Part shown: positions 2,305 to 58,029 of the stretch, piece after piece
How positions within the stretch are numbered: the stretch's first letter is position 1
How the letters are laid out: each line of letters opens with the position of its first letter
DNA from: Eledone cirrhosa
Lineage: Eukaryota
Direction of reading: 5' to 3'
Assembly (NCBI GenBank): GCA_964016885.1
Contig: OZ024740.1
Location: 208,258,001 to 208,322,000 of the forward strand
Length of the DNA stretch: 64,000 nt
Made by a program: the position numbers and the translations under genes
Notes under the pieces: model-generated
Told to the model about the DNA's origin: nothing
Database searches by the model: none
What the model saw: the letters and a program-made list of their open reading frames with translations, nothing else

Positions 2305-3062
<758 letters not shown>

Positions 3063-3065
3063 TAA

Positions 3066-3150
3066 ATTTAGTCCTTCATCAGTGATCTTCCAACCTTCAT
3101 TGGTATTTCATCGCTTTAAAGACCATATACCTCCGGTTGGTGCGAGCAAC
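3066..3150 (-). ncRNA. Conserved pseudoknotted RNA motif with kink-turn and hammerhead core strands (copy A)
   Basis: Colinear with 57191-57272 and 57739-57823; outer stem CCAACC/GGTTGG here versus CTAGCC/GGCTAG there. Confidence 0.6.
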
Positions 3151-4287
3151 AGCTAAAGAAAATCATTGGGACACGTAAATAAGGGGAACGAGCGAGACTG
3201 TAAACAATCAGAGATGGTAATGCAACGAAAAGTGAGGAAGAAGGAGTCAAGTCCCAGAATTCGATGAATATAAGTTCTGTGAAATCGTGGACATATATAT
3301 ATATATATCCGTGTGGGAGGTGCGGACCTGAGTTTATGTTTAGCAGTTCGATAACCGGGGCTGTATCAAAAAGCTGATCGAATAATTCGATTATGATAGA
3401 TCGATAAAATTAGTACCGGTCGGGGTCCATATATTCGGCTAAAAACCATTAAAAAGTAAAAGAATATGCGAATTCCTTTTTCTATCTACATACTCGAGTG
3501 TTTACATTATAGACTGCTCAATGCTTATCTATAGATAACTCTTTAAATATGCTATAAATCTAAGAGTTTTGTCTCTTGAATATAAATCTGTTTAGCGTTA
3601 GTACTGGAAAGTTTCCATCCGTAATTAGTCCCATCTTATCCCTGCGGACGAATTTGAAAATTTAGCGTCTTGTATCTCTTTGAATATCTTGGAATTCATT
3701 TTGGCTTAGTTCCCGAAAATTATCTATCTACCTTTTACAGGTTTTGGCTACAGTTGCTACTCAAAGTGGAGCATGAATTAGTACTAACTATTTTGGGATT
3801 TTGTTCTCGTTTTGCTGAAGTTTAATTCAATAAACACGACAGTCAGAAATATTTTATTCCTTTACTGGTTCCAGTCCATTGCGTTGTGGCCAGAGTGGAA
3901 CATTCAGTCTTAGGGCAGAGCTTTCGGTCTTTAGCACTGCTTATTTTCTCACACTCGAACTTTCAACAAACTGCTTTGTTGAAATAGATCCATAAACACA
4001 CAAAACTGACCCAACTGTGATCTTCTCAAGGCTGAAGTGACACATTGGAAAATTGCTTCCATGTTTAAGACCATGCTACTGTAGTTACATACAGACAATC
4101 TAGACCACATCTAAAAACTTCCATTTGTTTATTATGAAAGGTTCACTGGTCAACACATTACAACCACTAATCCCTAAGCATGACACTTCCCTTTTATTAC
4201 AATAGTCTCTCGTTTTCTCCAATTAAAAATCTGTATAATTTCTTTACCCAGGCCTCTACCACTACTACAATGACTATATGCAAAGTT

Positions 4288-9032: not shown

Positions 9033-9067
9033 ATTAGAATTGGTGCTCTGAAATAGCTATATATATA

Positions 9068-9555
9068 TATGAATATATATATAGTGTATTTTGCAATACA
9101 CTGTATGCTTAATTAAAAGCATTTCGAAGACCTTATGCTATTGTTTTAGAGTAGTGACAGACTCACTTACTTTAATGTCAGCAAATAGTGGGAGATAAAG
9201 CTGACAAGGCCTTGTTTCGCATTTATTGATGCTTATCAAATCCAACTACTCCTCCTGCTTGCTAATTTTCAATTTCTGCTTGACCGGCAACCGCTCTGTA
9301 TAATCAGTTCCTGATTATTTACTAGAATTCTATAAGAACCAAACATCCATGATTTCAGCAAGCAGGAGGAGTAGTTGGCTTTGATAAGCATCAATAAATG
9401 CGAAACAAGGCCTTGTCAGCTTTATCTCCCCCTGTTTGCTGAAATTAATATAAGTGAGTCTGTCACTACTCTAAAACAATAGCATAAGGTCTTCGAAATG
9501 CTTTTAATTAAGCATACAGTGTATTGCAAAATACACTATATATACATTCATATAT
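9068..9555. repeat. Long inverted repeat (~195-bp arms, ~90-bp spacer) with a hammerhead in each arm
   Basis: 9070-9265 is the near-exact reverse complement of 9355-9552. Confidence 0.85.
9377..9421 (+). ncRNA. Type I hammerhead, U3-A8 core variant
   Basis: GCT-TTGATAA-GCATcaataaATGC-GAAA-CAAGGCCTTG-TC^AGC; mirror copy on - at ~9199-9243 has a stem I mismatch. Confidence 0.7.
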
Positions 9556-9691
9556 AGATTTTGAGTTTATGTTGGTTGTATACCAACACCTCAGTATGCA
9601 GGCTGGAGCACTCGACGAAGTGCGCAGGTTGGTTTGGTTACTCCGGAGTAGTGTAAAATAAAGTTAAATAAATATATATATATTATATAAT

Positions 9692-11370: not shown

Positions 11371-11744
11371 CTCCAAACTCCATAAATCTTCAATAAACCA
11401 TAACTATTAAATCCCATCCAATGACTTCCGCCTCCGGCTATGCCATATTCCCTGTCTAATGACGACATATGGTTGAATGAAACACTCCCTGCTTCACTAA
11501 CAATCGTTATCAGTATTTTAGATTCTACTTTTACATTTACTTTACATATCATTTTCATGTTTCTCACATTTATCATTATTAGCTGACGCCGTGGAAATTC
11601 CACGGTTTCATCAGAAACCCCTAGTAAGTATTTCCTTCGTCCCGTAAATCTTGGTGGAGTTGTAGGGCGCTGTAATGATACACATCGTTCCTTGAGCATT
11701 TTAAAACCTGGCGGAGCCCACCACTTCACACATTTACAATGAGT

Positions 11745-13150
11745 ACTAGGTGCTTTTTGTCGTGACTCCTACATCGCCGCTTTACAGTGTAGGCTGGGTG
11801 CTGTTTGCTGTGACTCCTACACGACCACTTTACAGTGTGGGCTGGGTGCTTTTTGTTGTGACTCCTACGCGGCCACTTTACAGTGTGGGCTGGGTGCTGT
11901 TTGCTGTGACTCCTACACGACCACTTTAGAGTGTGGGATGGGTGCTTTTTGTCATGACTCCTACACAACCACTTTACAGTGTGGGCTGGGTGCTTTTTTG
12001 ACGTGACTCCTACACGACCACTTTACAGTGTAGGCTGGGTGCTGTTTGCTGTGACTCTTACATGACCACTTTAGAGTGTGGGCTGGGTGCTTTTTGTTGT
12101 GACTCCTACACAACCACTTTAGAGTGTGGGTTGGGTTCTTTTTGTCATGACTCCTACACAACCACCTTACAGTGTGGGCTGTGTGCTTTTTTGTCGTGAC
12201 TCCTACACGACCACTTTACAGTGTAGGCTGGGTGCTGTTTGCTGTGACTCCTACACAACCACTTTACAGTGTGGGCTGGGTGCTTTTTGTCGTGACTCCT
12301 ACACAACCACTTTAGAGTGTGGGCTGGGTGCTTTTTGTCGTGACTCCTACGCGGCCACTTTACAGTGTGGGCTGGGTGCTTTTTTGTCGTGACTCCTACA
12401 CGACCACTTTACAGTGTAGGCTGGGTGCTGTTTGCTGTGACTCCTACACGACCACTTTACAGTGTAGGCTGGGTGCTTTTTGTCGTGACTCCTACACGAC
12501 CACTTTACAGTGTAGGCTGGGAGCTTTTTGTCATGACTCCTACACAACCACTTTACAGTGTGGGCTGGGTGCTTTTTGTCGTGACTCCTACGCGGCCACT
12601 TTACAGTGTAGGCTGGGTGCTTTTTGTCATGACTCCTTCTCGACCACTTTACAGTGTAGGCTGGGTGCTTTTTGTCGTGACTCCTACGCGGCCACTTTAC
12701 AGTGTAGGCTGGGTGCTTTTTGTCATGACTCCTTCTCGACCACTTTACAGTGTGGGCTGGGTGCTTTTTGTCATGACTCCTACACAACCACTTTAGAGTG
12801 TGGGCTGGGTGCTTTTTGTCATGACTCCTACACGACCACTTTACAGTGTGGGCTGGGTGCTTTTTTGTCGTGACTCCAACACGACCACTTTACAGTGTAG
12901 GCTCGGTGCTGTTTGCTGTGACTCCTACACGACCACTTTACAATGTAGGCTGGGTGCTTTTTGTCATGACTCCTACGCGGCCAATTTACAGTGTGGGCTG
13001 GGTGCTTTTTTGTCGTGACTCCAACACGACCACTTTACAGTGTAGGCTCGGTGCTGTTTGCTGTGACTCCTACACGACCACTTTACAGTGTAGGCTGGGA
13101 GCTTTTTGTCATGACTCCTACACAACCACTTTACAGTGTGGGCTGGGTGC
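11745..13150. repeat. 48/49-bp minisatellite array (~29 units)
   Basis: Consensus GTGACTCCTACACGACCACTTTACAGTGTRGGCTGGGTGCTTTTTGTC, head to tail with no spacers. Confidence 0.95.
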
Positions 13151-15018: not shown

Positions 15019-15575
15019 CATCGTTCCTGTGTCAGTGTTGAACAAAGCCCGAATTACGCCGTACAGTGTTTAGGCAACCACGTCACCTTTTTGTTCAACA
15101 CTGACACAGGAACGATGTACTAGTTTCAAGTTTATTAGCTATCGTCAGCATCGTATACCTTCCTGCCAGATAGTTGAACGTCTGAAAGTATATACTTTCC
15201 TTATGCATATTAACGGCTGAGCAGCCTAATTTGCATATCGAGTGAGTTCAGTCGGCCGGGCACACCGAAAACGATAAATGGAATAGAATGAAACGAAATT
15301 TCATTTCTCACTCTTAGTACGGCACTTACTTCGGGCTGTTTGTTTGTTTACAAACAAACAATCCGAGCATTATAATAAATGTTCGGTAAACCGATACGTG
15401 CATATATATATGTGTGCATGTATGTATATATATACATACTACTGTATGTCTGTATACATATATGTATGTACGTATACATACATACTTACATATACATATA
15501 TATATATACATATATATATAGATACTACTGTACGTCTGTATACATATATGTATGTACGTATACATACATACTTAC

Positions 15576-15632: not shown

Positions 15633-16097
15633 AATGTTCCCGCCAGTACAAATTCAAAATATTATTCCATGATACTAAATTTTATATGCCACAGTGTGCT
15701 AGAATGAAGTGTTGATTTGAGTCAGATTTCCACTCAGAACACATAGAGATGGACAGTAATGTATTTAGACGATTCGCCAACTTCTGGATTTCCATCTGCT
15801 AGAAGAAGTAGTTAATCCTCCTTAAATCACACAATGCCATCTCAAATGATGGAAGGACAAACTGGACGACGTAATTCTTGATGGTAAGATTATAGATTGA
15901 ACACAATTGATGACAATTGATCATCGATAGGTATGAATAATCAGCGTTGATCAAAGGCTAAATGTTATTAGCAATGGTGTACGGTTGATGGAATTAATCA
16001 TAGTATATGACTGGTATCTATATATATATCGACACCCAGAGAAATTAAAACCGAGTCAGGTTTAAACTCAGAACGTGAGGAAAGAATGGACTAACTA

Positions 16098-17269: not shown

Positions 17270-20030
17270 CAGCACCTTTACGGACTTCCGAAGATCCACA
17301 AGTGGAAAATATTTATCGATGCCTGTAAACAATCCACCTCAACCTGCGTGAACACAATACCCCACATACCTTAAATTAAGACCAATTGTAGCGGGACCAC
17401 AATGTGAAACACTATTATTGTGTCTTTCGATGTAGTGAATCTCTACACAACGATCCCACACCAATACGGACTAGAAGCAATGGGATTCTGGCTAGAGAAA
17501 TATCCCAATGAGATACCTGACAGAATAGAAAAAAGCTTCATCATCGAGGGATTAAAATTTATTTTACAGAACAACTTTTTTGATTTCGTTGGCAGTACTT
17601 ACAAGCAAATATCGGGGACTGCGATAGGTACAAAAGCCTTATGCCAACTTAGTCATAGCATACTTGAAAGCCTTATGCCAACTTAGTCATAGCATACTTG
17701 GAAGTCCAGATATATGAACAGTCCAAATCAAAATACGGATTGAACTTCCACAAATATTTATCAGATAATTGGAAACGTCTCATTCTTTGGTCTCACACAC
17801 TCGACCAACTAAATGATTTCAAAAATTTAATTAACGGCATCAATAACCACATCCAATACACAATGGAATTCAGCCAAGATCAACTCCCATTTCTGGACAT
17901 CTTAATCTTTAAAAAAAGACACAAATATTGAAACTGACATACACTACAAACCAACAGATTCCAAACAATACCTGCTATTTTACCTCCAACCATCCAAAGC
18001 ACACGAAAACGAACATCCCTTTTAACCTAGCAAGAAGAATTTACACAATTGTCTCCAATTATGAAACGCGAAATAAAAGACTTCAAGAATTGAAGGAAAT
18101 TCTACTCGAAAGGCAGTACCCACCATTACTAATAAATGGAATAGCAAGGGCTAAAGCAATAGGCATTGATGAATTACGAAAACAGAAAAAATTCTATCAT
18201 ATATCTCAACACACAACCCAAGAAATGCGGAAGCTTACAACACTATTCACAAGAATATCCCACTATTGAAACAAGACCCAAGAATAAAATAAAGCCCTTG
18301 AAACACACAAAATAATCAAAATCAAAAGACAACCGAAATCACCAAAAACATTACTCACCAATGCCAAATTACCTACCACAAACTCACAACCAACTGTAAA
18401 AAAATGTGGTCGCTCTAATTGTGGAACCTGCACTCACCTCATTGAAGGCAACACATATACATTTAAATCAGGACAAAATTTTGCTGTAAAAAATCAATTC
18501 ACTTGCTCATCAAAAAATCTAATTTATGCTATTAAATGTAAAGGATGTAATGAAGATTATATAGGACAAACTAAACTCACACTCAGAAACAGAATGACAG
18601 TTCATCGCCAACAATTACGAGATCGAACCACGAGACAGATACCACTAAGTGCACATCTAGACATATGCGCAAGTAATAAGACATCCAAATTCCAAGTCTT
18701 CCCATTTTATCTTTGCGCTGACAATACAACAGAACAAATACGAATAAATGAGGAAAATATGTTTATTCAAAAATATAGACCAGCATTAAATATAGTTTAA
18801 TATACATTATGTCAACACCATAACATGCTAACCATCCAAACAGACACATACATACACACACACAAAACACCTTCTACTTTAGAAAATAAAAACCAGAACT
18901 AAATAAACCGTAACATACATTAATACTCTAACACCTTAACATGCAAACCACACACCCCACACACACATAACTCCCTCCCCCATGTCTACTAACAGAATCA
19001 TTTTCCTACACACACACACACAAAAATATATATATTCTCTCCATCTTAACATGCTAACCATACTCCCACACACACATACACACACACACACACACATAAC
19101 ACCCATACACGCACACACAACTCCCTCCACCATTTCTAATAATAGAATCATTTTCCTACACACACACACACAAAATATATATATTCTCTCCATCTTAACA
19201 TGCTAACCATACTCCCACACACACATACACACACATAACACCCATACACACACATAACACTCATACACACTCACAACTCCCTCCCCCATTTCTACTAATA
19301 GAATCATATTCCTACACACACACACAAGCACACAAATAAACATACATATCTCTACTTTCTTTATTTCAATAGAAAGTCTGAATTCTGACACCCCAGCGCA
19401 CCAGCCATATTCACTGAACCAGAACAATTCTCCCTATCCCATTTTTCTTGACCATTATCTTTTGTTTAGCACAACATTTTCTAAAAGGCTACAAAATAAA
19501 TTCCAAAATACGGGCGCGAAATTTAATGTACTTGTTCACGTGACAGTCATAATTTCATTTATAACCAACGAATTACATTTATAAAAAAAAAAAGCCTTTG
19601 TGAGCCACTTTTTTTTTAAGTAAAAAGAAATTCAAACACAAACTAGCGCGAAACCTGATGTGCTTATTCACGTAACTGCATCAACCAACCAAACTTCACT
19701 CATATATGAAAAAACAACCTGAACCCCTCTTTGTTTGAAGGCAAATATAATAAGAACTTTGTAACGCGAACTGGAGCGAAATTTATTATACTTATTCACC
19801 AACCAACCAAATTACTTCTCTAAAAACCTGGCATTTCGAGCCACTTTTTTTCCATATAAAACAGAAGTAACATTCAAAGACCAACCAGATGTGAAAAAAA
19901 CCCCACAATTCCTCCATTTGAATTCTTCTTTTGAAAAGCAGAAGAACTGCGAAACAGGTAAAGGAACCAAATAAATATATATATTTAAAAAAAAAAAGAC
20001 TCCAGCTGCATTTTCGATTTCATCTTTTTT

Positions 20031-20034
<4 letters not shown>
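17270..20034 (+). mobile_element. Penelope-like element (Neptune-type), 5'-truncated and frameshifted
   Basis: RT motifs YGLPKIHK, SFDVVNLYTTIP, QISGTAIGT, LPFLDI; CGRSNCGTC linker; GIY-YIG (NLIYAIKCKGCNEDYIGQT, HRQQ); stop at 18800; repeat-rich 3' UTR. Confidence 0.85.
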
Positions 20035-20074
<40 letters not shown>

Positions 20075-20246
20075 AAAAAAGATGAAATCGAAAATGCAGC
20101 TGGAGTCTTTTTTTTTTTAAATATATATATTTATTTGGTTCCTTTACCTGTTTCGCAGTTCTTCTGCTTTTCAAAAGAAGAATTCAAATGGAGGAATTGT
20201 GGGTTTTTTTTCACATCTGGTTGGTCTTTGAATGTTACTTCTGTTT

Positions 20247-20247
<1 letters not shown>
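19858..20247. repeat. Near-perfect palindrome (~175-bp arms) centred on (TA)n
   Basis: ORFs 19812-20174(-) and 19931-20389(+) translate almost identically; the same family recurs at 22915-23090 and 61683-61840. Confidence 0.9.
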
Positions 20248-20320
<73 letters not shown>

Positions 20321-34074: not shown

Positions 34075-34108
34075 CTTCTGATGAAGGACTAGTGTCCGAA
34101 ACGTTAAG
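34075..34108 (+). ncRNA. Minimal type I hammerhead
   Basis: CTT-CTGATGA-aGGACtagtGTCC-GAAA-CG-TT^AAG. Confidence 0.7.
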
Positions 34109-35410: not shown

Positions 35411-38386
35411 TGATTTCATTTATTAGCCACAAGGGCCGACATGTAGGGGACAATACAAAGACAGGGACAGTGGGGATTTACAATATGGTCGAGTAAAAGT
35501 GCACAATGGCAAGACTAATTTAACAATGAAAATATAAAAATATAAAATAAACTATGCATAAATATAACAAAATAAATTCCCCGATAGGGGGTGTACGACC
35601 CTGGAGTGCTTCAGGTACCCCACCAATCCTGAACCACCCTGCGCTTCTAGGGCATCCAGGAGAGCACCCCTCTCCTCAAGTTAGCCAGCCTATAGGCGCA
35701 TGGTCAGAGTAGGCCCATTCACACGAGCCATTCTCGCCACATTCACCCACCTTTTAGCAAATGTACTGGGGGGCAGCACTTCTCTCTCCACCCTCATCCT
35801 CCTTTCCAGGTGAAACTTGAAGAAGTTGATGAGGGATTGGCCGAAGAGAAAAGTGTCTGTCTTTAGTCCTTTCAACCTGGTCCACCATATAATCTCTTTC
35901 GCAACTGCCACCAGACAGAGGAAAATGTTCTGCTCTTCCTGACCTAAGGAAGGTGGAGGCTCGATCTTCACTATGGACTCGGCCGATAGCCGGATTCGTT
36001 CCACACGCGACAGTAGCTGTTCGACATAACTCCACAAGTCAGTAATGCACGGACATTGGACAAGTGCGTGCAGAACGGTTTCGTCGTTCTGTGCGCATCT
36101 TGGGCAGGTCCGTCTGACAGTACTTCCGTGCCTGTAGAGTTTATCCCGAACCGGCAGTGCCCCCCGGTAGCACTGCCAAGCGAGGGATTTCTGGAAATTG
36201 TCCATCGTCCCCGGCTCAAAAGTCCTCCGGTACAGACTGGTCAGTTCGACTTTGTCGCGGCCCAAAGCTTCTCCGAGTGCGTCATCGCACTTGCCCACCA
36301 CTAATCCTCTCTAGAACTCGAGAGTGGAAGTTCCACTGATCGCATTGCCCGCTTGGTAGAGGGCAGTGAGTGCCTGGCAACATTCCAGGTACCGGTCACC
36401 CAGTCTCGGTCTCTTCTTGACCCAGGATTGCAGCTCAGTCAAAGAAATGAGCTGCGGAAAGCCCCGTCTGATAAACCGCGACCACACCTGTTCACCATTG
36501 AGGCAGAATGTCTGGAGATGTCGCAGCCTCAACGCATGTCTGCGCATCATTAGCCACGGCATGCCCAGCCCTCCGCGTAGAGGGTGCTGGCAGCAGATGG
36601 ACCGCCTCACCAACGGAACTTGTCCCCTCCACAAGAATTTGAAGAGGAGCCGTTCCAACTTGACGAGGCGCGGACGGGGGCAAGGCACGACGGTTAGGCG
36701 GTAGTAGATGACGGATGCGATGTACGCATTCGCCACCTCCGCGCGACCTTTCAGTGATAGCTTCCTCCCAGCCCATTTTTGGGTGAGACTGGCTACTCTG
36801 CTCGTTACCTCGTCCCAATTCTTTTCCACCTGGAGGTCTGGTCCGAACCAAACCCCAAGCAACTTTACCGGTCCGTCCGTCCAGCGCCCCACGACGCTGT
36901 TGGACGGCATGGGCTTGCCTCTCCAGGTTCCGAGCTGCAAGCCCACCGACTTTTCCGGGTTAAGTTTGGCTCCTGTCAACCTTTCATATTCCTTCAATAA
37001 GGTGCCGACCACCTAGATTTCTGAGGTGTTCGACACCATCACGGTGATGTCGTCCGCATCAGCCGACACCGCCTTTCTACGTTCTGGTTCGTGCGGGATG
37101 CCCTGAAAGAGCTTCAGCTTCCGCAGTAAAGGATCGAGAGTCAATACGTACAGAAGGGAAGAGAGAGGGCACCCTTGACGGACCGATCGGGAAAGCCGGA
37201 ATGGTTCCGAGAGGTGGCCATTAACCTTGACCACCGAGCGTGTGCCGCTGTGCATTGCAACGATCCAGCTTCTAAAGACAGGGCCGAAGCCAGCTGCTTT
37301 GAGGACAAACTCCAGATACCGATGGTCGACCCTATCGAATGCTTTCGATTGATCTAAATTGATCAGTGCCCCACCGAAGCCAGGCTTACACCCTACCCTC
37401 TCTATGATGTATCGCATGAGGTGGAGATTGTCGTGTATGGACCTGGCTGGGATTGCGCAAGTTTGCGCCTCCCCAACCAAATCCTCGACGACAAGCGCCA
37501 ATCTCTTTGCTAACACCTTGGCCAAAATCTTAAACTCTGTGTTGAGCAGAGTTATGGGCCTGAAGTTGTCTAATGTATCACTCTTGTTCTCGTCTTTCCT
37601 TATCAGCGTCACCACTCCCCTGCTCACAGAACTGGGAATACTCCCATTCTGCTTCCAGTTGCAGTAGAGTGCTTCGAGGAGTTCGGAGAACAAGTCTGGC
37701 ATATTTACGTAAAGCTCGTAGGGCAGGCCATCCAGACCGGGTGACTTGCGCCTCATGCAGCCGACAAGGGCGTCCTGAATTTCGGCTGAAGTAATCGGCC
37801 TTTCGCAGTGCTCAGCGTCGACCGTCGAGATGCGCGGCAAGCCGTCAAAGTAGGGACTGAAATCCGCTACTCTCTCTGACTCGCCACTCTCCCTGAACAA
37901 CCGAGCAAAGTGCTGGCGAAAGGCCTCACACATCCGCTTGGAATCGCTTATCTCGTGTCCGTCTCGGTCCGCCAAAGACCGAATTGTGCTTTTATTACCA
38001 CGCTGCGCCTCCACCACGCGGGCCCATCGAACAGCTTTAGTTCCCTCGTTTCTCAGCGCACGCGCCTTAGCTCTGACAATGCAACCTTCGTGTTTGGCAT
38101 TGAAGAAATGGTCTAATGCCATTCTCGCCGCTAGCACGTCAGTTGCGATGCCACTACAAATAGCCTGGTCTAACTTATCTACCAGCTCCCCCTCCTTTCT
38201 ATTTTTCTCTAACGCTAGTTCTTTGCTGAACTCTATCGAAGTTACTCTAATCTCTCTTTTGAGAGCCCCCCACCATCTGTTGTTGATGATCCCCCCTGTC
38301 AACTTTTGCTTAACTAAATTGTTGACTCGGTCCCTGTAAGCCTTATGTGCCGGAAATGACATGTTCAGCTTCCAGTAACCCGGTCC
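35411..38386 (-). mobile_element. Tx1/L1-clade non-LTR retrotransposon, 5'-truncated, ORF2 with stop/frameshift
   Basis: GPGYWKLN, KSPGLDGLPYE, NFRPITLLN, LDQSKAFDRVDH, RQGCPLS, ADDIT, C-terminal CPRC..ETVLHALVQC; (TAA)n tracts on both sides. Confidence 0.9.
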
Positions 38387-38489
38387 TAATAACAACAATA
38401 ATAATAACGACAACAACAATAATAATATACATATACATATACATATACACATACACGCACACACATAAGCATATCTACAAACACACACA

Positions 38490-40412
38490 CACACGATATC
38501 AACTAACAGCGCTGCGACCGAATGTGGCTTTTTAGCCCAGCCAATGATCTAAAATGTCTTGCACAGAGTCGGCATCCACAACATTCACTGGGAATAGTCG
38601 GCTGTGGTTGGAGTTCGTGTACTTTTGCATGTCGCTTGAGCCCTCCTGCTGATTTACATTCTCTACCACATGTTTGGCAAGCATGATGAGTAGCATCTCC
38701 AACAGCAGCCTGGTAGTCAACCACTGGTCTTACTTTATGACTGCGAAGATGACTTTCGAGTCCAGCTTTGCTTAGGCAGAGTCTCGCACATACGCTGCAT
38801 GTCACCACCATAGGAGGACCCTAGCCGTCTGGAAGTGCAACAGCAATGCCCTTCCTCACATCCCGCTTTACTTTCTCGTATGCGATTCGAGATGCCTCAA
38901 AAGCAACTTTTCCCTCATATACAGTCTTTCTCCATTTATTACGATCAGCAGCAATATTCTCCCATGTATCAGCAGAGATGTTAGCGTCTTTCAGAGAGGC
39001 TTTCAAGGAATCCTTATACCTCTTTTTTGGTTTATGTGGCGGTCGTTTTCCTTTAACCAACTCTCCATAAAAGAGTTGTTTTGGTATTCTAGAATCCTTC
39101 ATCCTGGCAAGGTGACCACTCCAACGGAGTCGTTGCTTAAGCACAAGAGCTTCTATACTGTCACACATAGAGCTTTCCAAAATCTCGACATCACTGATGT
39201 GGTCCCTCCAGTGAACGCCATGGATCCGTCTGAGACACATCTGATGGAAACGCTCCAATTGCTTAAGGTGGTGTCGATATGTGACCCAGGTCTCGCAGGC
39301 ATAAAGAAGACAAGAGAGCACACATGCCCTGTACACCTTTACCTTTGTCCTGCTGCCTATGTCTTGCCGACCCCAGAGTCGCCTTTCTAGCTTTCCGAAA
39401 GCATCACTTGCTTTCCTAATCCTAAGTGAGATTTCACTGTCAAGGTTGCTGTATCGATTGACAGTGCTTCCCAGGTAGACAAACTGATCAACCACTCCAA
39501 GTCGTTTGCCATACACATAGATGTTTGGTTCAGTGTACTGCTTACCAGGGGCAGGTTGGTACATGACGACGGTTTTCTTGAGACTGACAGTCAGACCTAG
39601 GGTAGTGCAAGCGTCAGAAAATGCATTCACAATGTGCTGCATATCACTCTCTGTGTGCGCTACAAGATCGCAATCATCTGCATACAAGAGGTCTCTTATG
39701 ATTGATGTAAATACTTTTGTCTTCGCAGCAAAGCGCCTGATGTTAAATATGCTGCCTGAGGTTCGATATCGGATGTAAACACCATGCTCGCAATTCCTGA
39801 ATGCAATACAGAAAACCATTGCAAAGTATATGGCAAACAGGGTCGGTGCTGGAATATCCCCCTGTTTCACTCCATTTTTTACTGAGATAGGCTCCGACAT
39901 GTTACCCGGACATTAACCCAAGCCTTCATGTCGTCATGGAAAGACGTAACTAAAGCAAGGAACTTATCAGGGCAACCAAGTTTCTGGAGAACCTTCCATA
40001 ATGCATCTCTGTTAACAGTATCGAAAGCTTTTGTCAGATCGACAAAAACCTGATACAGATCCAAGCCTTGTTCCATGCACTTCTCCTGGAGCTGTCTAAC
40101 TGAGAAGATCATATCAGTAGTGCCGCGTCCAGCACGAAAACCAGATTGACTTTCAGGAAGAACACAATCTGCAATGTGTGTCAGCAGACGGTCCAGAAAC
40201 ACCCTACATAAAACTTTCCCTACGACAGAAAGCAATGATATACCTCTGTAGTTCCCACAATCGTTCCTGTTACACTTTCCCTTGTACAAGACCACCATTA
40301 CTGCATCTCTCCAGTCCTCAGGTACGGATTCATTAGCCCATATCCTGCCAAACAAAGAGTGAAGATGTTGCAGGAGTCTCTCACCACCATATTGTAGGAG
40401 CTCAGCACACAC
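38490..40412 (-). mobile_element. RTE-clade LINE, 5'-truncated, with three C-terminal C2H2 zinc fingers
   Basis: NYRGISLL, FVDLTKAFD, GVKQG, LYADD, YLGS, RLRWSGH, PKQLFYGEL; three CxxC..H fingers in 38503-38811; (GT)n tail. Confidence 0.92.
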
Positions 40413-41466: not shown

Positions 41467-44400
41467 ACGCGATCAGTCGCATATTTTGGCGTGGGAGACT
41501 ATTTATTAAATTTAAGATAAATACTATCTCTGACAGTAATGCCACAACTACAGCCAGGTTGAATAACTGGTTATTCTTCTAACTATCCCTTCTGAAGACA
41601 CCTTTTATTCGAATTCGTAGAGATATCCGACGAAATACATAATTCATTTTACAAGGATTTGCTACAAATAGCATGGCTGAACACAACATCAACAAGAAAA
41701 TTAAGGAAGTATCGAAGACAAATAACAAAGAAGGTAATCAAACTTTATTCAGTTGTAGCTACAGAAGAAACCGAAATTATAAATCGCATTTCTCTTGGAG
41801 TTGCGAACTTAATAATGATTTATTTAATTGTTATAAAATGGCAAACACAAATCTCTCCATTGGCTATATGAACAGAATGAAGCTACACTGGGACGAAATA
41901 CACCCAGAGCTAAATTATTTCACAGCGAAACAATTACGCCAACAAACGACGTTTGTTGAACGTAAAAATAAGATAAATATTATTAATTGTAAGTCCCCCA
42001 CAACAAACATGGAATCAACAACACGTGCTACAGATCGCCATGTTACTAGACTTCCTAGCAGCCAGGTCGAACAGCGCCTTGAAACAACTATGCCTGTACC
42101 ATCTAAGTCTACCTCGAATGCTGGGGAAAAAACACTATCGATAATAATAATAATCGAAGAAATAATAATAATAATCGAATAAATGTGACACCACGTATAC
42201 CATCTGAGTCTACCTGGACTGTTGTGGAAAATACTATCGATAATGATAATCAAAAGTATAAACAATTGAAAATTTCCCTCAACGAAATCTTCCAGAGAGA
42301 AATTAACTCATGTATAAATATCTCTCTGGCTGAACGTGTTAAAATGACAATGGTGAATAAAAAACCAAATAATGAAATACTACGTGTTATTGACGAAATA
42401 GGGATGAATATTTACGACGGATAAAAACCCCAACATTTTGGCAAATCAACGCCTGTTTATATGCCTTAGCAATGACAGTGAAGCATTATCTTGGTGATAG
42501 CAGAGATATTAACAAGAACAAAACACCACCAAATATACCATCATATATAACTAAAATAGAAAAAAAGAGTGCTGACCTACGAAAAAACATAGGACATGTG
42601 ATAATGCTCCTTACATGCAAACAAACACAAAAAAACCTCACTCCTCACCAACAAAGAGTGAAAAATAAAATAGAGACGATGTTTCGTAAAAGTAGAACCA
42701 GAACTCTCCAATATAAGCTGATCACCCTCAAACAAGAATTAAGAGCTGTTAGCGAAAAACGCCGATACCTGAAGAAGGTAGATGAGAGAAAAATGCTTAA
42801 TAAAAGATTCAGACGAAACCAAACATCAGCCTATAGAGATATGAAGGGCAAAATAATAAGTGTCACTGAGGCCCCATCCCAGAAAGACATAGATTCCTTT
42901 TGGAGAAAAATATGGGGTGAAAAGAAGAATTTCAACCAAGATGCAGTGTGGCTAAGAGAAATCCGAAAGAACTATCGCTCCTACACTACAACAAAAACAT
43001 ACCAAATAAGTGAGGGTACCCTTGAGACTGTGATAGGAAAACCCCAAGATAAGAAAACACCAGGAAGAGACAAGATTGTCGACTACTGGTACAAAAAAAT
43101 AATATTCTATCGTAGGTATCTTACTGACCTCTACCAACAAGTTCTTAAGGGAGATACACCTATACCAGAATGGTTGACATTAGCACAAACGTTACTGGTC
43201 CACAAGAACAAAGACACCCACTTGGCAAAAGACTACCGACCCATTGCATGCCAGAACCTGATGTATAAGATGTATACAGCCTGCCTGAACCTATTCCTCC
43301 AATATCACTGTGAAAATAATAACATCATCACAGATGGAACAAGCAGCTGGAAAGAAAAGGGTTTAGGGATATGCTGAACAACTCCTAATCAACAAAACTG
43401 CGATGTCGGAGGTACGACAACTTAGGAGGAATATGACTACAGTCTGGCTGGACTACAAGAAAGCTTTCGATTCTGTTCCCCACTCTTGGATGATAGAGGC
43501 CCTCCAACTTGCTAAAGTCCCAGACATTATTGTCAGAGCCATAGAGAGGCTGTCTTCTTATTGGGCTACTATCCTAAGGTTAAAGACAGAGAGGGAGGAC
43601 TCTATTTTCACTGATAAAATAAAATATTTCAGGGGTATAATTCAGGGGGACAGTCTCTCTGTGATATTGTTCATCTTGTCATTAAACCCCTTGTCCTTTC
43701 TGCTCAAGATATGTGAGGGATACATCATTGGCTCACAGGAGAACAGAAATACGAACCTAACCCATAACTTCTTTGTGGACGATCTGAAACTCTATGCCAA
43801 GAACATGGATGGGATGAAGAAAAATCTTGACCTGGTTACAACGTTCTCAAAGGATATAGGATTGGAGTTTGGCCAAGATAAATGCTCATACATGACTGTA
43901 AAGCGGGGAAAAACAACAACCCAATCTAGCAACATTGTCATCCATGGTCTAACTGTTTCACCGATATCTGATGAGGACTGCTACAGATACCTGGGGATAG
44001 ATGAGAACATATCCTATAATGGTATCTGTAATAAAGAACGCGTAACCAGGGAATACTACACCCGATTAAGAAAGATCTGGTCATCGGAACTCTCTGTGCA
44101 AAACAAAACAGTGGCTCACAATGTGTTTGCTGTGCCTGTCCTAACACCAACGTTTGGAATACTCAATTGGACGATAGACGAAATCCGAGCAGTTGATGTT
44201 GGAACTCGAAAAATACTGAACAACACCGGAAACTTCCACATCAACAGTGACATAGACCGCCTTTACTTGAAACGTAAGCAGGGAGGCAGAGGCCTAACAT
44301 CAGTCCAGACAACATTTGAATGTCGCATCATATCTCTCCGACAACATCTACGAACCTCGAAGCGTAGGAGCTCGCTTCTCGAGCAAGTCTATCTGCATGA

Positions 44401-45520
44401 AACAGATAAGATCATGAGAGTTGAGAAGGAACTCCTTGGGAGATATTCCCTGTATGATAATCAAAAACTCACACCCAGGGATGTCGCTCAGCAGTATCGC
44501 AGTGAATCCATAGGTGAAAAACTGCATGCTTATCAGCAAAAAATCATGCATGGATATGTTGCCAGGAAGCTCCAGAGTGAGAGTAATGTAGATAAGGAAA
44601 GTAGTCTATCTTGGACCAACAACCGCTATATTGGCTCCCACTTTGAAGGATACGCTTTTGCAATCCAAGAACAGGCGATTAACACGAAATACCTGATTCA
44701 CAAAAGAGATAGGGGTGCAAGCAAAACACCTAGATGTGATAACAAGTGCAGACTCTGCAGGACTAACATCGAGGATATCATCCATGTCATCAGCAGTTGT
44801 CCAAAGATGTCATCGCGGTACTATCTACCTATGAGGCAAGATGTAGTGGCCAAAACACTGTACAATGCAGTTCGTAAAAAAGATAGCCCCGATAACAAAC
44901 ACATTAAAAGCTACAACAATGTGGAAGACATCCATGTACATAATATGAAAGAGTACTGGTGGAATGTTCCAGTAAAACCCCAATAAAATGCAGGCATAAC
45001 AGACCCGATATTATGATATGGGACAGGGAGAAGAACATATACACAGTAGTGGAAATTAGCCAATATAATATCAAAGATTAGTGAAAAGGAGAATATTTAT
45101 GCAGAACTGATGAGAAATCTGCAGATACTCCACCCTGATTACACCTTCAGATTTATGCCTGTGATTATTGGAGCACTGGGATATGTTAGTAACTGCCTCA
45201 ATACAAATCTTGAGAAGCTAGGCTTCACAGGAACAGAAATAACACAACTAGTTAGGAAATTACAAGTACAATCCATTAATGGAACAGTAAAAATATGTAA
45301 AACATTCCATCTAATAACTGCATATACACATGTACAGATACAAAACATCTCAAAATATACACATCCACACATACAATAACATCCATATCTACACATGCAT
45401 GCATACATAATCTACCTAGTTGATGTTATGTAAATTCCAATGAGAGAGTCTTGTGTCTATGTTAGAAATCGACTCTCTCTCTATTGGTAAAACTTTGTGA
45501 AATTATAAAACCAGAAGAAC
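41467..45520 (+). mobile_element. R4/Dong-clade non-LTR retrotransposon (RT + CCHC + restriction-like endonuclease), near full length, frameshifted
   Basis: YRPIAC, WLDYKKAFDSVPH, QGDSLS, FVDDLKLY, GGRGL, CRLC..H..C, NRPDI..VVEIS; (CATA)n at both ends. Confidence 0.9.
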
Positions 45521-45529
45521 ATACATACA

Positions 45530-48160
45530 GTAAAAAAAGGTTAGAGACGATTTGGAAATACAAAATTTAAAACTTTGAACTCCAAATTACACCAGTTGAA
45601 ACAACAACTCACAGCTACAACAGAAAGACTAAAATATAAGTCAACAGCCCATAAACGACAAGTGCTAAATAGATTGTTTGCCAGAGATCCTAAATCAGTT
45701 TATCGCAGCTTCGGTGGCAAAAGCTCAATCTCTGTAAATGACACCCCTTCAAAAGAACAGGTTGAGAGCTACTGGAGATCTGTATGGGACTACTGCCAAC
45801 ATGTCCAGACAAAACAATATGACATAGATGGGTCAATACTGGAAACAGCTCTACAGAAAATGTCGAATAGGAAATCACCAGGCCCAGACCTCATTACAGG
45901 ATACTGGTTGAAGAATTTCACTTTCTATCGGCAAGATCTCATACGGCTGTTTACAGAAACCATTAAAGGCACACAAGAACTGCCCAGATGGTTATCAACT
46001 GCCACTACTCTCCTCATTCCCCAAAATAGCCAAACCACCCTTGCTAAAAATTACCGCCCAATAGCCTGCCAAAACATCATGTATAAATTATATACTGGGT
46101 GCCTTAACCTGTTCTTACATGATTACTGTGCTACCAACAACATCATAACACCTGAGCAAGCTGGTGGAAAGATGGAGGTGTGGGGGTTGCATAGATCACC
46201 TACTAACTAATAAAATGATTCAAGAAAAAACAACAAAGACTCGCAGAAACATGACTGTGGTGTGGCTGGACTATCAAAAAGCATTTGATAGTGTACCTCA
46301 TGGGTGGATTGTTAAGGCTTTACAGTTAGCCAAAGTCCCACAACCACTGGTAGCTGCTGTTGAACGTCTGACCAAGAACTGATACACCAATTTGATCCTT
46401 AGAGGTGAGAAGGAGCAAGTTAAGACTGATAAGATACATTACCAGAAGGGCATCTTTCAGGGTGATAGTTTGTGAGTGCTACTCTTCGTTCTCTCACTAA
46501 ATCCACTATCTTACCTACTCAGGAAACAAGGTGGACAAAGAAGTGGGTCCAGAAGTATCTCCCATCTTTTCTTTGTTGATGACCTGAAGTTGTATGGGCC
46601 AAATATCAATGACATCAAGAAACAATTGGACCTCATTACACAATTTTCAACAGACATCAAAATGAAATTTGGTGAGTCCAAGTGTGCATATTTGGCAGTA
46701 AAACGTGGAAGAGCTATGCCCTCCTCTAGAAATCTAGAGATGAACGGCCTGACAATACAACCTCTACAGTCAGGTGACAACCACAGATATCTTGGACAGG
46801 ATGAGAATGTCAGATATGATGGACCTATAAATAAGGAAAGAACCAGAACTGAATACCACAGAAGATATACCACAGAAAATATGGTCATCAGAACTGTCAG
46901 CGTACAACAAATACATTGCCCACAATACTTATGCTGTGCCAATTCTAACGCCAACATTTGGCCTGCTGAACTGGTCATTGCAAAACTAAGTGAGATGGAT
47001 GTTAGAACTCGCAAACTTCTCAGTGTTACTGGGAACTTTAACATCAATGGTGATGTGGATAGGCTATACTTCTGACGCAAGGAAGGTGGCCTGGGTCTAA
47101 AATCCATATTAACATCATATGAGACCCGGATAGTAACACTGAAGCAACACCTTCAACAGAGGAAAAAGGTTGGCAACCATCTTGCCCAGGTTTATGAGCC
47201 TGAAAAAAAGTATATCATTAGAATAGCCACTGATCTGGAGGAGAGATATGGAATAAAGCCTGATATAAATCTCTCACCCAGAGAAATCGGAAGATCCTAT
47301 TCAATGTTCAAACAAGATGAAAAAATTGACCAATTTACAGAAAAAGTTGTGCATGGATACTTGAGACGTAAAACACAGACCATAGAGGGTATAAACCACT
47401 CAAAAAGCCTGGCATGGAGTTCCAACAAGTTTATGACATCACACCTTGAGGGATATCTCTATGCAATACAGGAACAAGAAATGTCTACCAAATATCTGCT
47501 GCACAAAAGGGGAGGACCATCAGCTGACAATAAATGTAGGTTATGTAAAACAAAGATCGAGGATGTAAGCCACATTGTTGCCAGCTGCGAAAGAATGTCA
47601 TCTCGCTACTACCTCCCCATTAGACACGATGGGATAGCTAGAACCATCTGGAACGCACTTCGGAAAACAAAATTAACCACAAATGAGGAAGAATATATTG
47701 AGACAGGTGGCACTAAGGAATACTGGTGGAACCTGAAAATAAAAACTGCCACCAAATTAAAGCACAACCGGCCTGATATTGTTATTTGGGACCAGACATT
47801 GAAAACGTGTTCTGTTGTGGAGATCAGTTGCCCACTTGATGTAAACGTTGTCAGAAAAATACAGGAGAAGGAGGACATCTACGGACCATTGATGAGGAGT
47901 TTACAAATCCAGTATCCAAGATACACCTTTAGCTTCATACCCATCATTATTGGAGCTACGGGTTATATACCAACCCGCTTGGACCAAAGTATGACTGAAC
48001 TTGGATTTGCGGACAAAGAGCGCAGCTCCCTAATTCATAGTCTAAAAATGGCTGCGATAGCTGGCACCTTCAAAATTTGCAAAACATTCTTGCGATTCAA
48101 GGGATGACAATTTCTTTTCTTTTACAACCTTGCCACCAGGAAGGTGGCCGGTCAAAAAAA
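45530..48160 (+). mobile_element. Second, divergent R4/Dong-clade element, 5'-truncated, in tandem
   Basis: Same motif series in ORFs 45575-48107 (WLDYQKAFD, FVDDLKLY, CRLC, RHD, NRPDI, VEISCP); short A tail at ~48153-48159. Confidence 0.88.
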
Positions 48161-57054: not shown

Positions 57055-57143
<89 letters not shown>

Positions 57144-57190
57144 TCTCTTTCTCCACCCAATTCTTTTTATCCCAATAACTTATTTTAGTT

Positions 57191-57272
57191 ATTGTTCGCG
57201 CTAGCCTGAGGTATCTGGTCTTTAATGCGAAGAAATACCTATGATGGCTAGTAGACCACTGATGGATAGTCC
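57191..57272 (+). ncRNA. Pseudoknotted kink-turn/hammerhead-core motif (copy B)
   Basis: TTCGC-g-CTAGCC-TGA-GGTAT-C-TGGTCT-ttaat-GCGAA-GAA-ATACC-TAT-GAT-GGCTAG-t-AGACCA-CTGATGG. Confidence 0.6.
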
Positions 57273-57738
57273 TATTTCTAATTCTTCATTTTAATTTGTA
57301 TATCACACAGCACGCCATTTTTCATTCCTATATGCTTTCCCCTTCGCTGTGACCTGTCTTTTTCTCTTCCCTTACTGCTATCCTCTTTCTCTCTCCCCCT
57401 TCTCTCTCCTCCCTCTTACTTTCATTCACCCCCTCTGCTAGTCACCCTCTCTCGGCTAGCCTCTTCCTCACACTTTCCCTCACTCACTCTCTGCTACTCA
57501 CCCTCTCTCTCCTCCTCCATTGTCCCACACCGTGCGTAATTTTTTCCTCGCTTACTTTCGCATGGTTGGGATGTGTCTCTCGTCTTCTCGTCAATATTCG
57601 CAAGTTCTTATGTTGAAATGAATCACTGACTTGATTTTCTCATTTTTTCCTCTCTTTACGTTGCCTCACCATTCGTGTTTGTTTACCTGTCTCTCTTTCT
57701 CCACCCAATTCTTTTTATCCCAATAACTTATTTTAGTT

Positions 57739-57823
57739 ATTGTTCGCGCTAGCCCGAGGTATCTGGTCTTTAATGCGAAGAAATACCTATGATGGCTAGT
57801 AGATCACTGATGATGGATAGTCC
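57739..57823 (+). ncRNA. Pseudoknotted kink-turn/hammerhead-core motif (copy C)
   Basis: As copy B, ending AGATCA-CTGATGA-tGGAtagTCC. Confidence 0.6.
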
Positions 57824-58029
57824 TATTTCTAATTCTTCATTTTAATTTGTATATATATATATATATACATAGACATACATACAAACATACACACACATAT
57901 GTATATGTATATATATATATATGCATCACACACACATACACACGTATATAACACACACGCATATACATATATATATATACATATATATATACACATATGC
58001 ACATACATATATATGTACATATATACACA

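What the first reader, a model, noticed from the sequence alone, without database searches (positions are those of the whole stretch)
57143..57854. Unrecognised covarying RNA fold (kink-turn + double pseudoknot + permuted hammerhead core) in the terminal repeats of an ORF-less element
Seen: an ~80-nt motif occurs three times, at 57191-57272, 57739-57823 and a diverged copy on the minus strand at 3066-3150. The outer stem is CTAGCC/GGCTAG versus CCAACC/GGTTGG, two compensatory changes. The inner stem GGTAT/ATACC is joined to it by a 3-nt bulge plus tandem GA/AG, which fits the kink-turn consensus (copy B has box D CTGA opposite ATGATG). The loop holds TGGTCT, which pairs downstream with AGAYCA, and GCGA, which pairs upstream with TCGC. 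All three hammerhead core strands are present: GGTA-U-H^stem I, GAAA-TACC, and stem I'-CUGAUGA. Their order (A-C-B) is not a circular permutation of types I, II or III. The single potential 10.1-11.1 pair also flips (A-T in copy A, T-A in copy C). Two copies form the 160-bp direct repeats of a 548-bp-period non-coding unit inside (TA)n. Established: retrozymes and PLE pLTRs use self-cleavage in terminal repeats to release monomer RNA. Inference: this may be an undescribed ribozyme topology or an L7Ae/15.5K-binding motif in a retrozyme-like element.
Basis: partly seen in the sequence, partly recalled or inferred. Interest (0 to 1): 0.85.

Follow-up and report, generated by a model that had tools for sequence, protein, structure and literature searches.

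The report
Kink-turn rewired hammerhead in retrotransposon tails
The repeat holds a folded RNA with all the core letters of a hammerhead self-cutting RNA, wired in an order and with a kink-turn that I did not find described; the same fold ends HERO-type jumping genes of animals, where it likely cuts the element's RNA, but cutting is untested.

Summary
The motif is real and larger than reported (about 104 nt). Block order S-G-C is the non-circular type-SGC hammerhead of Eckert et al. 2023, so the order alone is known. The wiring differs in three ways. The stem II partner strand and the stem I-II interaction strand lie 5' of the cleavage block. A consensus kink-turn joins that helix to stem III. 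Two extra helices (P0, P1) form a four-way junction at position 9/10.1.

An architecture-only scan of metagenomes gave 64 loci. Four keep the whole fold with different stem sequences, and one is a decayed copy. These five are the only loci of 162 with a HERO-clade LINE endonuclease gene, and the fold sits at its 3' end. No Rfam ribozyme match was found.

In the window it marks a non-coding 551-nt retroelement inserted in (TA)n as a 1.3-mer, plus a second truncated insertion. The first copy has a damaged core. Most likely it is an active hammerhead whose halves stay clamped by about 20 base pairs, favouring religation or circularisation. Cleavage, expression and the mobilising partner are untested. 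New variant of a known kind.

The parts
57143..57854 (+). Whole insertion: 5'-truncated partial unit (repeat A) followed head-to-tail by one full 551-nt unit; non-coding
57143..57303 (+). Repeat A (161 nt). Carries the motif from 57168 with a 3-nt deletion that removes A9 and shifts the P0 3' strand; probably dead
57304..57690 (+). Pyrimidine-rich body of the unit (whole unit 72% C+T, 43% G+C; longest ATG ORF 19 aa); no second copy in the window
57691..57854 (+). Repeat B (164 nt), 3' end of the element; its last TATAT is shared with the (TA)n flank
57716..57819 (+). Intact permuted hammerhead fold, copy B
57716..57742 (+).
57744..57778 (+). P2 = stem II: 57744-57747 pairs 57775-57778; partner strand lies 5' of the cleavage block
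57749..57799 (+). Interaction ('I') helix 57749-57754 with 57794-57799; joins the far ends of stems I and II as in type-SGC ribozymes
   Evidence: PMC10085705 Fig 1C legend and supplement alignment
57755..57793 (+). Kink-turn: non-bulged strand 57755-57757 (3n, G2n, A1n); bulged strand 57788-57793 (L1-L3 with L3 = U, G1b, A2b, 3b)
   Evidence: consensus from PMC4382518
57758..57769 (+). Block S: stem III 5' strand 57758-57762, C17 at 57763, predicted cut 57763/57764, stem I strand 57764-57769
   Evidence: sequence; cut site inferred from hammerhead numbering
57780..57787 (+). Block G: G12 A13 A14 A15.1 and stem III 3' strand
57801..57813 (+). Block C: stem I partner 57801-57806 and CUGAUGA 57807-57813
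57060..57140 (.). (TA)n left flank of the insertion; (TA)n also follows 57849
3060..3292 (-). Copy C: separate 233-nt 5'-truncated insertion of a diverged subfamily (75% identity to B over 174 nt), between (AT)8 at 3293-3308 and (AT)n ending at 3059
3070..3173 (-). Intact fold, copy C; predicted cut 3126/3125; kink-turn 3b.3n = A.G

Best explanation
The motif is a hammerhead-type RNA fold in a rewired type-SGC layout at the 3' tail of HERO-clade LINE retrotransposons and of a non-coding retroelement in this genome, and it likely self-cleaves and would then religate or circularise the element's RNA. Shown by sequence and covariation: blocks in the order S-G-C; stem II formed with a strand 5' of block S; A9 followed by helix P0, so that P0, hairpin P1, stem II and the core meet in a four-way junction; the stem I-II interaction helix continuous with stem III through a kink-turn. 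Inferred: (1) the kink-turn supplies the sharp bend needed to connect the far end of stem III with the interaction helix, and stem II stacks on the A9.G12 pair as usual. (2) Intact copies cut after position 17 (57763 in B, 3126 in C). (3) The two products stay paired through four helices (20 bp in B), so in a more-than-unit transcript cutting at two copies would release a 551-nt monomer whose ends refold the ribozyme and close a circle. (4) A reverse transcriptase supplied in trans, most likely a HERO-type protein that shares this tail, nicks (TA)n, starts at the tail 66-91 nt past the cut site, and copies through the site on uncut or religated RNA. Running more than once round a circle or along a multimer gives the 0.3 + 1 unit insertion. 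My odds: fold 0.9; cleavage by intact family members 0.75; circle or multimer processing as the biological role 0.45; HERO rather than Penelope partner for the window's element 0.55.
For: Covariation between B and C. Four metagenomic loci of 64 keep the fold with different stems, and a fifth is decayed. Across 7 intact-core copies 146 of 154 stem cells pair and 16 of 22 pairs change on both sides; one search gives 95.6% paired against 70.4% shuffled, 0 of 500. Helices not used in the filter also hold: P2 33 of 35 cells, and P0 forms in all 7 with a P1-type hairpin in 6 of 7. N7 takes all four bases and position 17 takes C, A and U. The five loci are the only ones of 162 that hit HERO-like proteins; the relative P0008 matches HERO-1_BF closely by eye. 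Type-SGC ribozymes cleave in vitro and need the I helix, and their authors flagged the stem III / I-helix connection as a structural puzzle. Natural hammerheads tolerate an extra nucleotide at 9/10.1 (PMC4209133). Animal retrozymes give circular RNAs from tandem hammerhead repeats (PMC7229834). Some HERO families target microsatellites (PMC4640811).
Against: No cleavage, RNA or read-level data. The core letters and the kink-turn GA pairs were written into the search pattern, so their conservation in the metagenomic hits is selected, and stems I, III and I-helix were used as the filter. How many HERO tails lack the core was not measured. The window's copies lack the conserved G10.1-C11.1 pair (U-A in B, A-U in C), and copy A has lost A9. 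All 8 copies include the sequence 3' of the cut site, so the template copied was uncut or religated; none of the three window copies is truncated at the cut site. In the Penelope-like element PAc, hammerhead cleavage was not needed for insertion in vitro (PMC11167929). The five HERO loci look like single terminal copies, not tandem arrays. No HERO gene lies in the window, while Penelope-like remains do. Pseudoknot-free folding recovers only part of the structure.
Confidence: 0.6

Rival explanations
1. The fold is a non-catalytic docking structure for the element's reverse transcriptase (like the structured 3' UTR of R2). Its hammerhead-like letters are a relic or are used for protein recognition. 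The 1.3-mer arose by template jumping between two linear RNAs.
For: Position at the very 3' end of LINE-type elements. All copies keep the sequence beyond the cut site. Weak 10.1-11.1 pair in the window's copies. An earlier unchecked AI note on another genome (e1-7941993) reached this reading for a hammerhead look-alike in a LINE tail. R2 template jumping is known (title seen in a reference list; details recalled).
Against: The complete core is present in at least four lineages whose stems have turned over. The helices are mutually compatible once stem II is assigned to the upstream strand. Linker lengths and the I helix match cleaving type-SGC ribozymes. Docking and cleavage do not exclude each other.
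Confidence: 0.2
2. It cleaves, but as an off-switch or 3'-end trimmer: cutting removes the tail needed for priming or translation and so limits element activity, possibly under control of a host kink-turn-binding protein (15.5K/Snu13) or of ribosomes that melt the 5' strands.
For: Only uncut RNA appears to have been integrated. In L007 and L063 the reading frame seems to run through P0a-P1-P2a-I and stop at the kink-turn's UGA. A local hairpin that competes with P0 is predicted in L007 and L063 (-5.8 kcal/mol) and weakly in B. L3 = U in all copies (also fixed by the pattern).
Against: It does not explain the partial-tandem insertion in the window. Products clamped by about 20 bp would not part easily. 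5 of 8 copies have 3b.3n pairs that fold in ions alone by the rules of PMC4382518.
Confidence: 0.12
3. The window's element is a Penelope-dependent retrozyme that merely borrowed this ribozyme; the HERO link is a separate use of the same motif.
For: Partial-tandem layout and AT-rich targets are typical of Penelope-like elements. The window has GIY-YIG remains and several type I minimal hammerheads. Copy C shares 14 nt (CUGAUGA plus 7) with the type I hammerhead at 34078. Non-LTR retrozymes are attributed to Penelope-like elements (bioRxiv 10.64898/2026.07.22.740005).
Against: All 5 coding-linked examples are HERO tails, and block lengths in L007 equal those of B. The covariance model finds no copy of the fold at the Penelope-like remains in the window. 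This rival changes only the partner, not the fold.
Confidence: 0.3
4. Chance arrangement, or a truncated ordinary type I hammerhead whose GAAA half is missing.
For: Copies B and C resemble type I stem II starts just after CUGAUGA.
Against: 0 of 300 shuffles; compensatory changes; independent homologues; GAAA pairs upstream through stem III in all copies; no GAAA follows block C in repeat A, where the unit continues.
Confidence: 0.02

Closest known systems
Type-SGC hammerhead ribozymes (HRIMA-1 and SGC variants; Eckert, Friedrich, Weinberg, Weinberg 2023, PMC10085705)
   Same: Block order S-G-C; short linker from stem I to stem II; helix joining the far ends of stems I and II, placed 1-2 nt after the stem II strand and just before the stem I partner; full core.
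   Different: There stem II's partner follows CUGAnGA directly (their search patterns require CUGAUGA(U)G plus stem II). Here it lies 5' of block S; 0-1 canonical pairs are possible. Here a kink-turn joins stem III to the I helix ('kink' and 'k-turn' occur 0 times in their supplement) and a P0/P1 four-way junction opens the core at 9/10.1. Their SGC examples came from metatranscriptomes, none from genomes of known organisms; these are in animal DNA and retrotransposon tails.
Non-LTR retrozymes of animals (Cervera and de la Pena 2020, PMC7229834; Li, Clavereau, Pollet 2026 preprint)
   Same: Non-coding, low G+C, head-to-tail repeat with a hammerhead core in each repeat; unit length inside the 51-972 bp range of the preprint.
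   Different: Those carry type I hammerheads and are tied to Penelope-like elements; this has a non-circularly permuted core whose coding-linked relatives are HERO LINEs. Circular RNA not tested here.
HERO clade of restriction-like-endonuclease non-LTR retrotransposons (R2 group; PMC4640811)
   Same: The five metagenomic loci end a gene with CCHC finger and PD..E..K-type endonuclease; relatives are fish R2-like proteins of about 1,150 aa that match HERO-1_BF by eye. Some HERO families target microsatellites.
   Different: The window's element has no ORF. I found no report of a ribozyme in HERO 3' ends; the ribozymes described for R2 and L1Tc are HDV-like and, for L1Tc, at the 5' end (5' position for R2 recalled).
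Minimal type I hammerheads of Penelope-like element pseudo-LTRs (PMC4209133)
   Same: Hammerhead in the repeated end of a retroelement in partial-tandem layout; extra nucleotide at 9/10.1; several are present elsewhere in this window.
   Different: Those lack stem III and work as dimers; this has a 5-bp stem III, should fold as a monomer, and has a different strand order.
Standard kink-turns (Kt-7, SAM-I riboswitch, box C/D, U4; PMC4382518)
   Same: 3-nt bulge, tandem G.A and A.G pairs, flanking helices; C-G as first C-stem pair and L3 = U (these two consensus points recalled).
   Different: Here it sits inside a predicted ribozyme. I found no natural kink-turn hammerhead in the paper searches (listings and abstract starts only).

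Membership tests
Hammerhead ribozyme | Core C3 U4 G5 A6 N7 G8 A9, G12 A13 A14, A15.1-U16.1, H17 | tested here: met
   Met in B and C, not in A (A9 lost). In the five metagenomic loci these letters were required by the pattern.
Hammerhead ribozyme | Stems I and III flanking the cut site, with covariation | tested here: met
Hammerhead ribozyme | Stem II next to G12 with a 10.1-11.1 pair, usually G-C | tested here: inconclusive
   A 4-5 bp helix abuts G12 in all 7 copies, formed with an upstream strand. Pair next to G12: G-C in 3, G-U in 1, U.C mismatch in 1 metagenomic copy; U-A and A-U in B and C.
Hammerhead ribozyme | Tertiary contact between stems I and II | tested here: met
   6-bp I helix, 4 pairs with both-side change
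Hammerhead ribozyme | Site-specific self-cleavage after position 17 | not testable with these tools
   needs a bench assay
Type-SGC hammerhead (Eckert 2023) | Block order S, G, C | tested here: met
Type-SGC hammerhead (Eckert 2023) | Block C uninterrupted: CUGAnGA directly followed by the stem II strand | tested here: not met
   0 canonical pairs in 5 of 7 copies, 1 pair in 2 of 7; their patterns. It works like SGC but is not a member as defined.
Hammerhead types I, II, III (circular permutations) | Order CGS, GSC or SCG; Rfam match | tested here: not met
   Order is SGC. No hammerhead model among matches at E up to 10 on 57421-57850 or E up to 1 on the five loci.
Kink-turn | 3-nt bulge followed by G.A and A.G between two helices | tested here: met
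   All 8 copies; unselected in the 3 window copies, required by the pattern in the 5 others
Kink-turn | Kinked conformation and binding of L7Ae/15.5K | not testable with these tools
   3b.3n = A.G x3, C.U x2, A.U, U.C, U.U
Non-LTR retrozyme | Non-coding tandem repeat with a hammerhead in each unit | tested here: met
   1.3 units, ORF at most 19 aa; first core damaged
Non-LTR retrozyme | Type I hammerhead | tested here: not met
   permuted S-G-C core
Non-LTR retrozyme | Expressed as linear and circular monomer RNA; many genomic copies | not testable with these tools
   No genome held; no RNA holder listed; two separate insertions in 64 kb
HERO-clade LINE (for the five metagenomic loci) | RT followed by CCHC finger and restriction-like endonuclease; RT groups with HERO | tested here: met
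   RT of relative P0008 compared by eye with HERO-1_BF and HEROTn; no tree built
HERO-dependent non-autonomous element (for the window's copies) | Shares its 3' end with an autonomous HERO element of the same genome | not testable with these tools
   No HERO gene in the window; host genome not held

The most novel reading that the evidence does not exclude
HERO-clade LINEs and their non-coding dependants end in a seventh natural hammerhead wiring, one that breaks the supposedly indivisible CUGAnGA block, uses a kink-turn as a structural hinge and clamps its own products. It makes these R2-group elements cut and close their RNA into circles that are reverse-transcribed from an internal start, with a host kink-turn-binding protein or the terminating ribosome as the switch. 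That would be a 3'-end, circle-based cycle in a retrotransposon group thought to use linear RNA with 5' HDV-like ribozymes.
Probability: 0.25. Interest if true: 0.92.

Novelty: new variant of a known kind. Interest (0 to 1): 0.76.

Why it matters
The 2023 paper that defined non-circular RNA permutations assumed three indivisible hammerhead blocks, found its type-SGC examples only in metatranscriptomes, and left open how stem III can be joined to the stem I-II helix. This fold breaks one block, lies in animal genomic DNA, and offers a kink-turn as the join. It would be missed by Rfam and by the published search patterns, so animal genomes may hold many uncounted ribozymes. It also places a predicted self-cleaving RNA at the 3' end of an R2-group retrotransposon clade, the part that such enzymes recognise for priming. 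That bears on how these elements process their RNA and on their use as gene-insertion tools. All of it can be tested with 110-nt transcripts.

Tried and rejected
Rfam: the whole-window scan listed only microsatellite-driven and other sub-threshold matches among the 150 of 211 shown; focused scans found no ribozyme. Own genome: not held. No read-level data were obtained, so copy number, variants and 5' truncation points stay open. A sequence-specific metagenome pattern found 0. Viral contigs: 0 of 31 pattern loci passed the stem filter; no HERO relative among 17 candidate stretches. Prokaryote genomes: 0 of 67 passed. Metagenomes: 59 of 64 were dropped as chance; L063 failed the strict filter (stem I broken at the first pair) and was kept by eye as a decayed relative of L007. 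L034 scored 30.6 bits but lies in an open reading frame with no HERO hit and a 1-bp I helix: rejected. My first covariance model and pair count had the structure off by one column; searches are therefore close to sequence-only searches. Corrected, which found only the three known window copies (next best E = 0.028 at 15850-15919, not followed); the corrected model was not rerun on the loci. Longer context for the five loci could not be fetched. Homologue searches did not identify the host animal or the taxon of L007/L063 (one unnamed hit). In one search a third listed difference between A and B comes from where I placed the gap; one search shows two substitutions. Canonical SGC stem II, plain type I truncation and box C/D snoRNA (E = 5.3) were rejected.

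Full report
OBSERVATION. The insertion at 57143-57854 is a 161-nt repeat A, a 387-nt pyrimidine-rich body and a 164-nt repeat B, with (TA)n on both sides. A and B differ by two substitutions and a 3-nt deletion in A, so the intact unit is 551 nt (57304-57854) and the insertion is 0.3 + 1 unit, head to tail. Its longest ATG ORF is 19 aa. Copy C (3292-3060, minus strand, 233 nt) is a separate, 5'-truncated insertion, 75% identical to B over 174 nt and also between (TA)n runs. The window is microsatellite-rich and holds RT and GIY-YIG remains; I read it as animal DNA but did not identify the taxon. No host genome is held.

THE FOLD. In copy B, 5' to 3': P0a 57716-20; hairpin P1 57721-42; P2a 57744-47; I-helix strand 57749-54; kink-turn strand 57755-57; stem III 57758-62; C17 57763; stem I 57764-69; 5-nt linker; P2b 57775-78; 11.1 57779; GAAA 57780-83; stem III partner to 57787; bulge and GA 57788-93; I-helix partner 57794-99; stem I partner 57801-06; CUGAUGA 57807-13; one base; P0b 57815-19. 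Between B and C, 33 of 35 pairs are kept and 4 change on both sides (P about 2e-4 by simulation; 4 of 500 shuffles, slid controls 25-50% paired). A descriptor found B and C in the window; 300 shuffled windows gave 2 bare cores and none with the kink-turn and I helix. Copy A has lost A9 and is probably dead. Rfam has no match.

WHAT IS ALREADY KNOWN. Eckert et al. 2023 (PMC10085705; I read parts 1-6 of 8 of the text, which hold the whole body, parts 1, 6 and 8 of 42 of the supplement, and a term search) split the hammerhead into blocks S, G and C and showed that the non-circular order S-G-C occurs and cleaves (0.007-0.13 per min). The order here is S-G-C, so the order is not new. But they assume CUGAnGA is directly followed by the stem II strand, and their patterns require it. 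Here that pairing gives 0 pairs in five copies and 1 in two. The stem II partner and the I strand have moved to the 5' side, where the I helix continues into stem III through the kink-turn, and A9 leads into P0. The authors found no type-SGC ribozyme in genomes of known organisms, and noted that a direct link between the far ends of stem III and the I helix is hard to fit to the crystal structure. A kink-turn is a natural way to make that link (inference).

RELATIVES ELSEWHERE. A pattern with the exact stem sequences found nothing in metagenomes. A pattern with only the core, the kink-turn letters and two G-C pairs gave 64 loci. Four (L007, L043, L047, L066) passed a filter for stems I, III and the I helix, and L063 is a decayed relative of L007. 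The same pattern or a looser one gave 0 passes of 67 prokaryote-genome loci and 0 of 31 viral loci. Over B, C and the five loci, 146 of 154 stem cells pair and 16 of 22 pairs change on both sides; 0 of 20,000 strand permutations reach that pairing, and 4 and 8 of 331,776 do when one copy per lineage is used. The tool's own count on three helices gives 95.6% against 70.4% (0 of 500). Part of this is selected by the filter. The unselected parts hold too: P2 pairs in 33 of 35 cells, P0 forms in all seven, and a P1-type hairpin in six of seven by co-folding (in C it is degraded).

All five loci carry, just upstream and on the same strand, the end of a gene with a restriction-like endonuclease, and they are the only loci of 162 that hit such proteins. 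The relatives of L047 are fish R2-like proteins of about 1,150 aa with RT. The RT of one of them, P0008, matches HERO-1_BF closely by eye against two published alignments (supplement passages of PMC5678591 and PMC7650587; no tree built). In L047 the predicted cut lies about 107 nt after the stop codon. Similarity between L007 and L063 ends 74 nt past the cut site, and between L043 and L047 about 60 nt past it. So the fold is the 3' tail of HERO-clade LINEs in at least three lineages. HERO includes microsatellite-targeting families (PMC4640811, passages).

MECHANISM. Shown: the fold, its covariation, its place at element 3' ends, the partial tandem, the (TA)n flanks. Inferred: (1) P0 stacks on P1 and stem II stacks on the A9.G12 pair in a four-way junction; natural hammerheads already accept an extra base at 9/10.1 (PMC4209133, passages). 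(2) The kink-turn is architectural: 5 of 8 copies have 3n = G or 3b = C, the ion-folding classes of PMC4382518 (passages), though a host protein could still bind. (3) Intact copies cut after position 17. (4) The products remain paired through P0, P2, the I helix and stem III (20 bp in B), which should favour religation; a monomer cut from a longer transcript would refold the ribozyme across its ends and circularise, as animal retrozymes do with type I hammerheads (PMC7229834, passages). (5) Since every copy keeps 60-91 nt beyond the cut site, reverse transcription starts at the tail and passes the site on uncut or religated RNA; more than one round gives the 1.3-mer. The terminal TATAT of B may anneal to the nicked (TA)n target.

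AGAINST. Nothing here shows cleavage or expression. The core letters in the metagenomic hits were demanded by the pattern. The window's copies lack G10.1-C11.1. The HERO loci look like single terminal copies. In a Penelope-like element, hammerhead cleavage was dispensable for insertion in vitro (PMC11167929, passages). Template jumping on linear RNA could also give a 1.3-mer. The partner of the window's element is unknown: the tail points to HERO, while the layout, the neighbours and a 14-nt match between copy C and the type I hammerhead at 34078 point to Penelope-like elements (preprint 10.64898/2026.07.22.740005, parts 1-2 of 5). An unchecked note on another genome read a similar look-alike in a LINE tail as non-catalytic because its helices conflicted with the SGC model; here that conflict disappears once stem II is assigned to the upstream strand, but I could not see that sequence.

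NOVELTY. Ten library searches (listings and abstract starts) and passages of PMC13725137, PMC10162972, PMC6765202 and PMC3088659 showed no report of this wiring, of a natural kink-turn hammerhead, or of a ribozyme in HERO 3' ends. The library lacks most subscription journals, Repbase Reports and preprint supplements, so this is not proof. PMC11300833 was seen as a listing only. Verdict: a real, well-supported RNA fold; a new variant of the hammerhead ribozyme related to type SGC, in a new genomic setting; activity and role untested. Interest 0.76.

Noticed in passing
L007 and L063, codon at the kink-turn non-bulged strand (L007 about 600-602): The reading frame that resembles the HERO C-terminus appears to run through P0a, P1, P2a and the I strand and to stop at the kink-turn's UGA, so ribosomes could melt the 5' half of the fold. 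Both copies are decayed; not so in L043, L047, L066.
   Followed up: partly
L007:659-671, L063, window 57815-57823: A local hairpin that competes with P0 is predicted just after CUGAnGA (-5.8 kcal/mol in L007 and L063, -1.0 in B; absent in C and L043), a possible on/off switch.
   Followed up: partly
window 23303+, 34078+, 62530+, 34456-, 26481-: Five ordinary type I-like hammerhead cores (CUGAUGA, stem II, GAAA) of the Penelope minimal kind; the one at 34078 shares 14 nt with the 3' end of copy C.
   Followed up: partly
window 18288-18797+, 59770-61127-, 30090-32423-: Remains of Penelope-like elements: GIY-YIG hit at 18288-18797; the other two judged by eye from translations.
   Followed up: partly
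window about 41600-48100+ and 62837-63998-: Decayed RT plus zinc-finger LINE copies, with long inverted matches between the two places; R4/Dong-like by recalled motifs. No copy of the fold at their ends.
   Followed up: partly
window 35693-38548- and 38824-40412-: Two further LINE-type RT remains (RVT_1 hit at 37016-38548).
   Followed up: no
window 19844-20261 and 9061-9559: Long near-perfect inverted repeats (209-nt arms with no spacer; 203-nt arms with 93-nt spacer), MITE-like or fold-back.
   Followed up: no
window 2461-2746, 15046-15331 and about 2847-2960: A second dispersed repeat (286 nt, 97% inverted match) lies just beyond the (AT)n next to copy C.
   Followed up: no
window 11637-13140: 48-nt tandem array of about 30 units.
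   Followed up: no
window 5527-6102+: Fragment of a widespread 480-570 aa protein of no Pfam family with relatives in fish, insects, a crustacean and a tunicate; probably a transposase.
   Followed up: partly
window 15850-15919+: Weak hit of the corrected covariance model (16.5 bits, E = 0.028).
   Followed up: no
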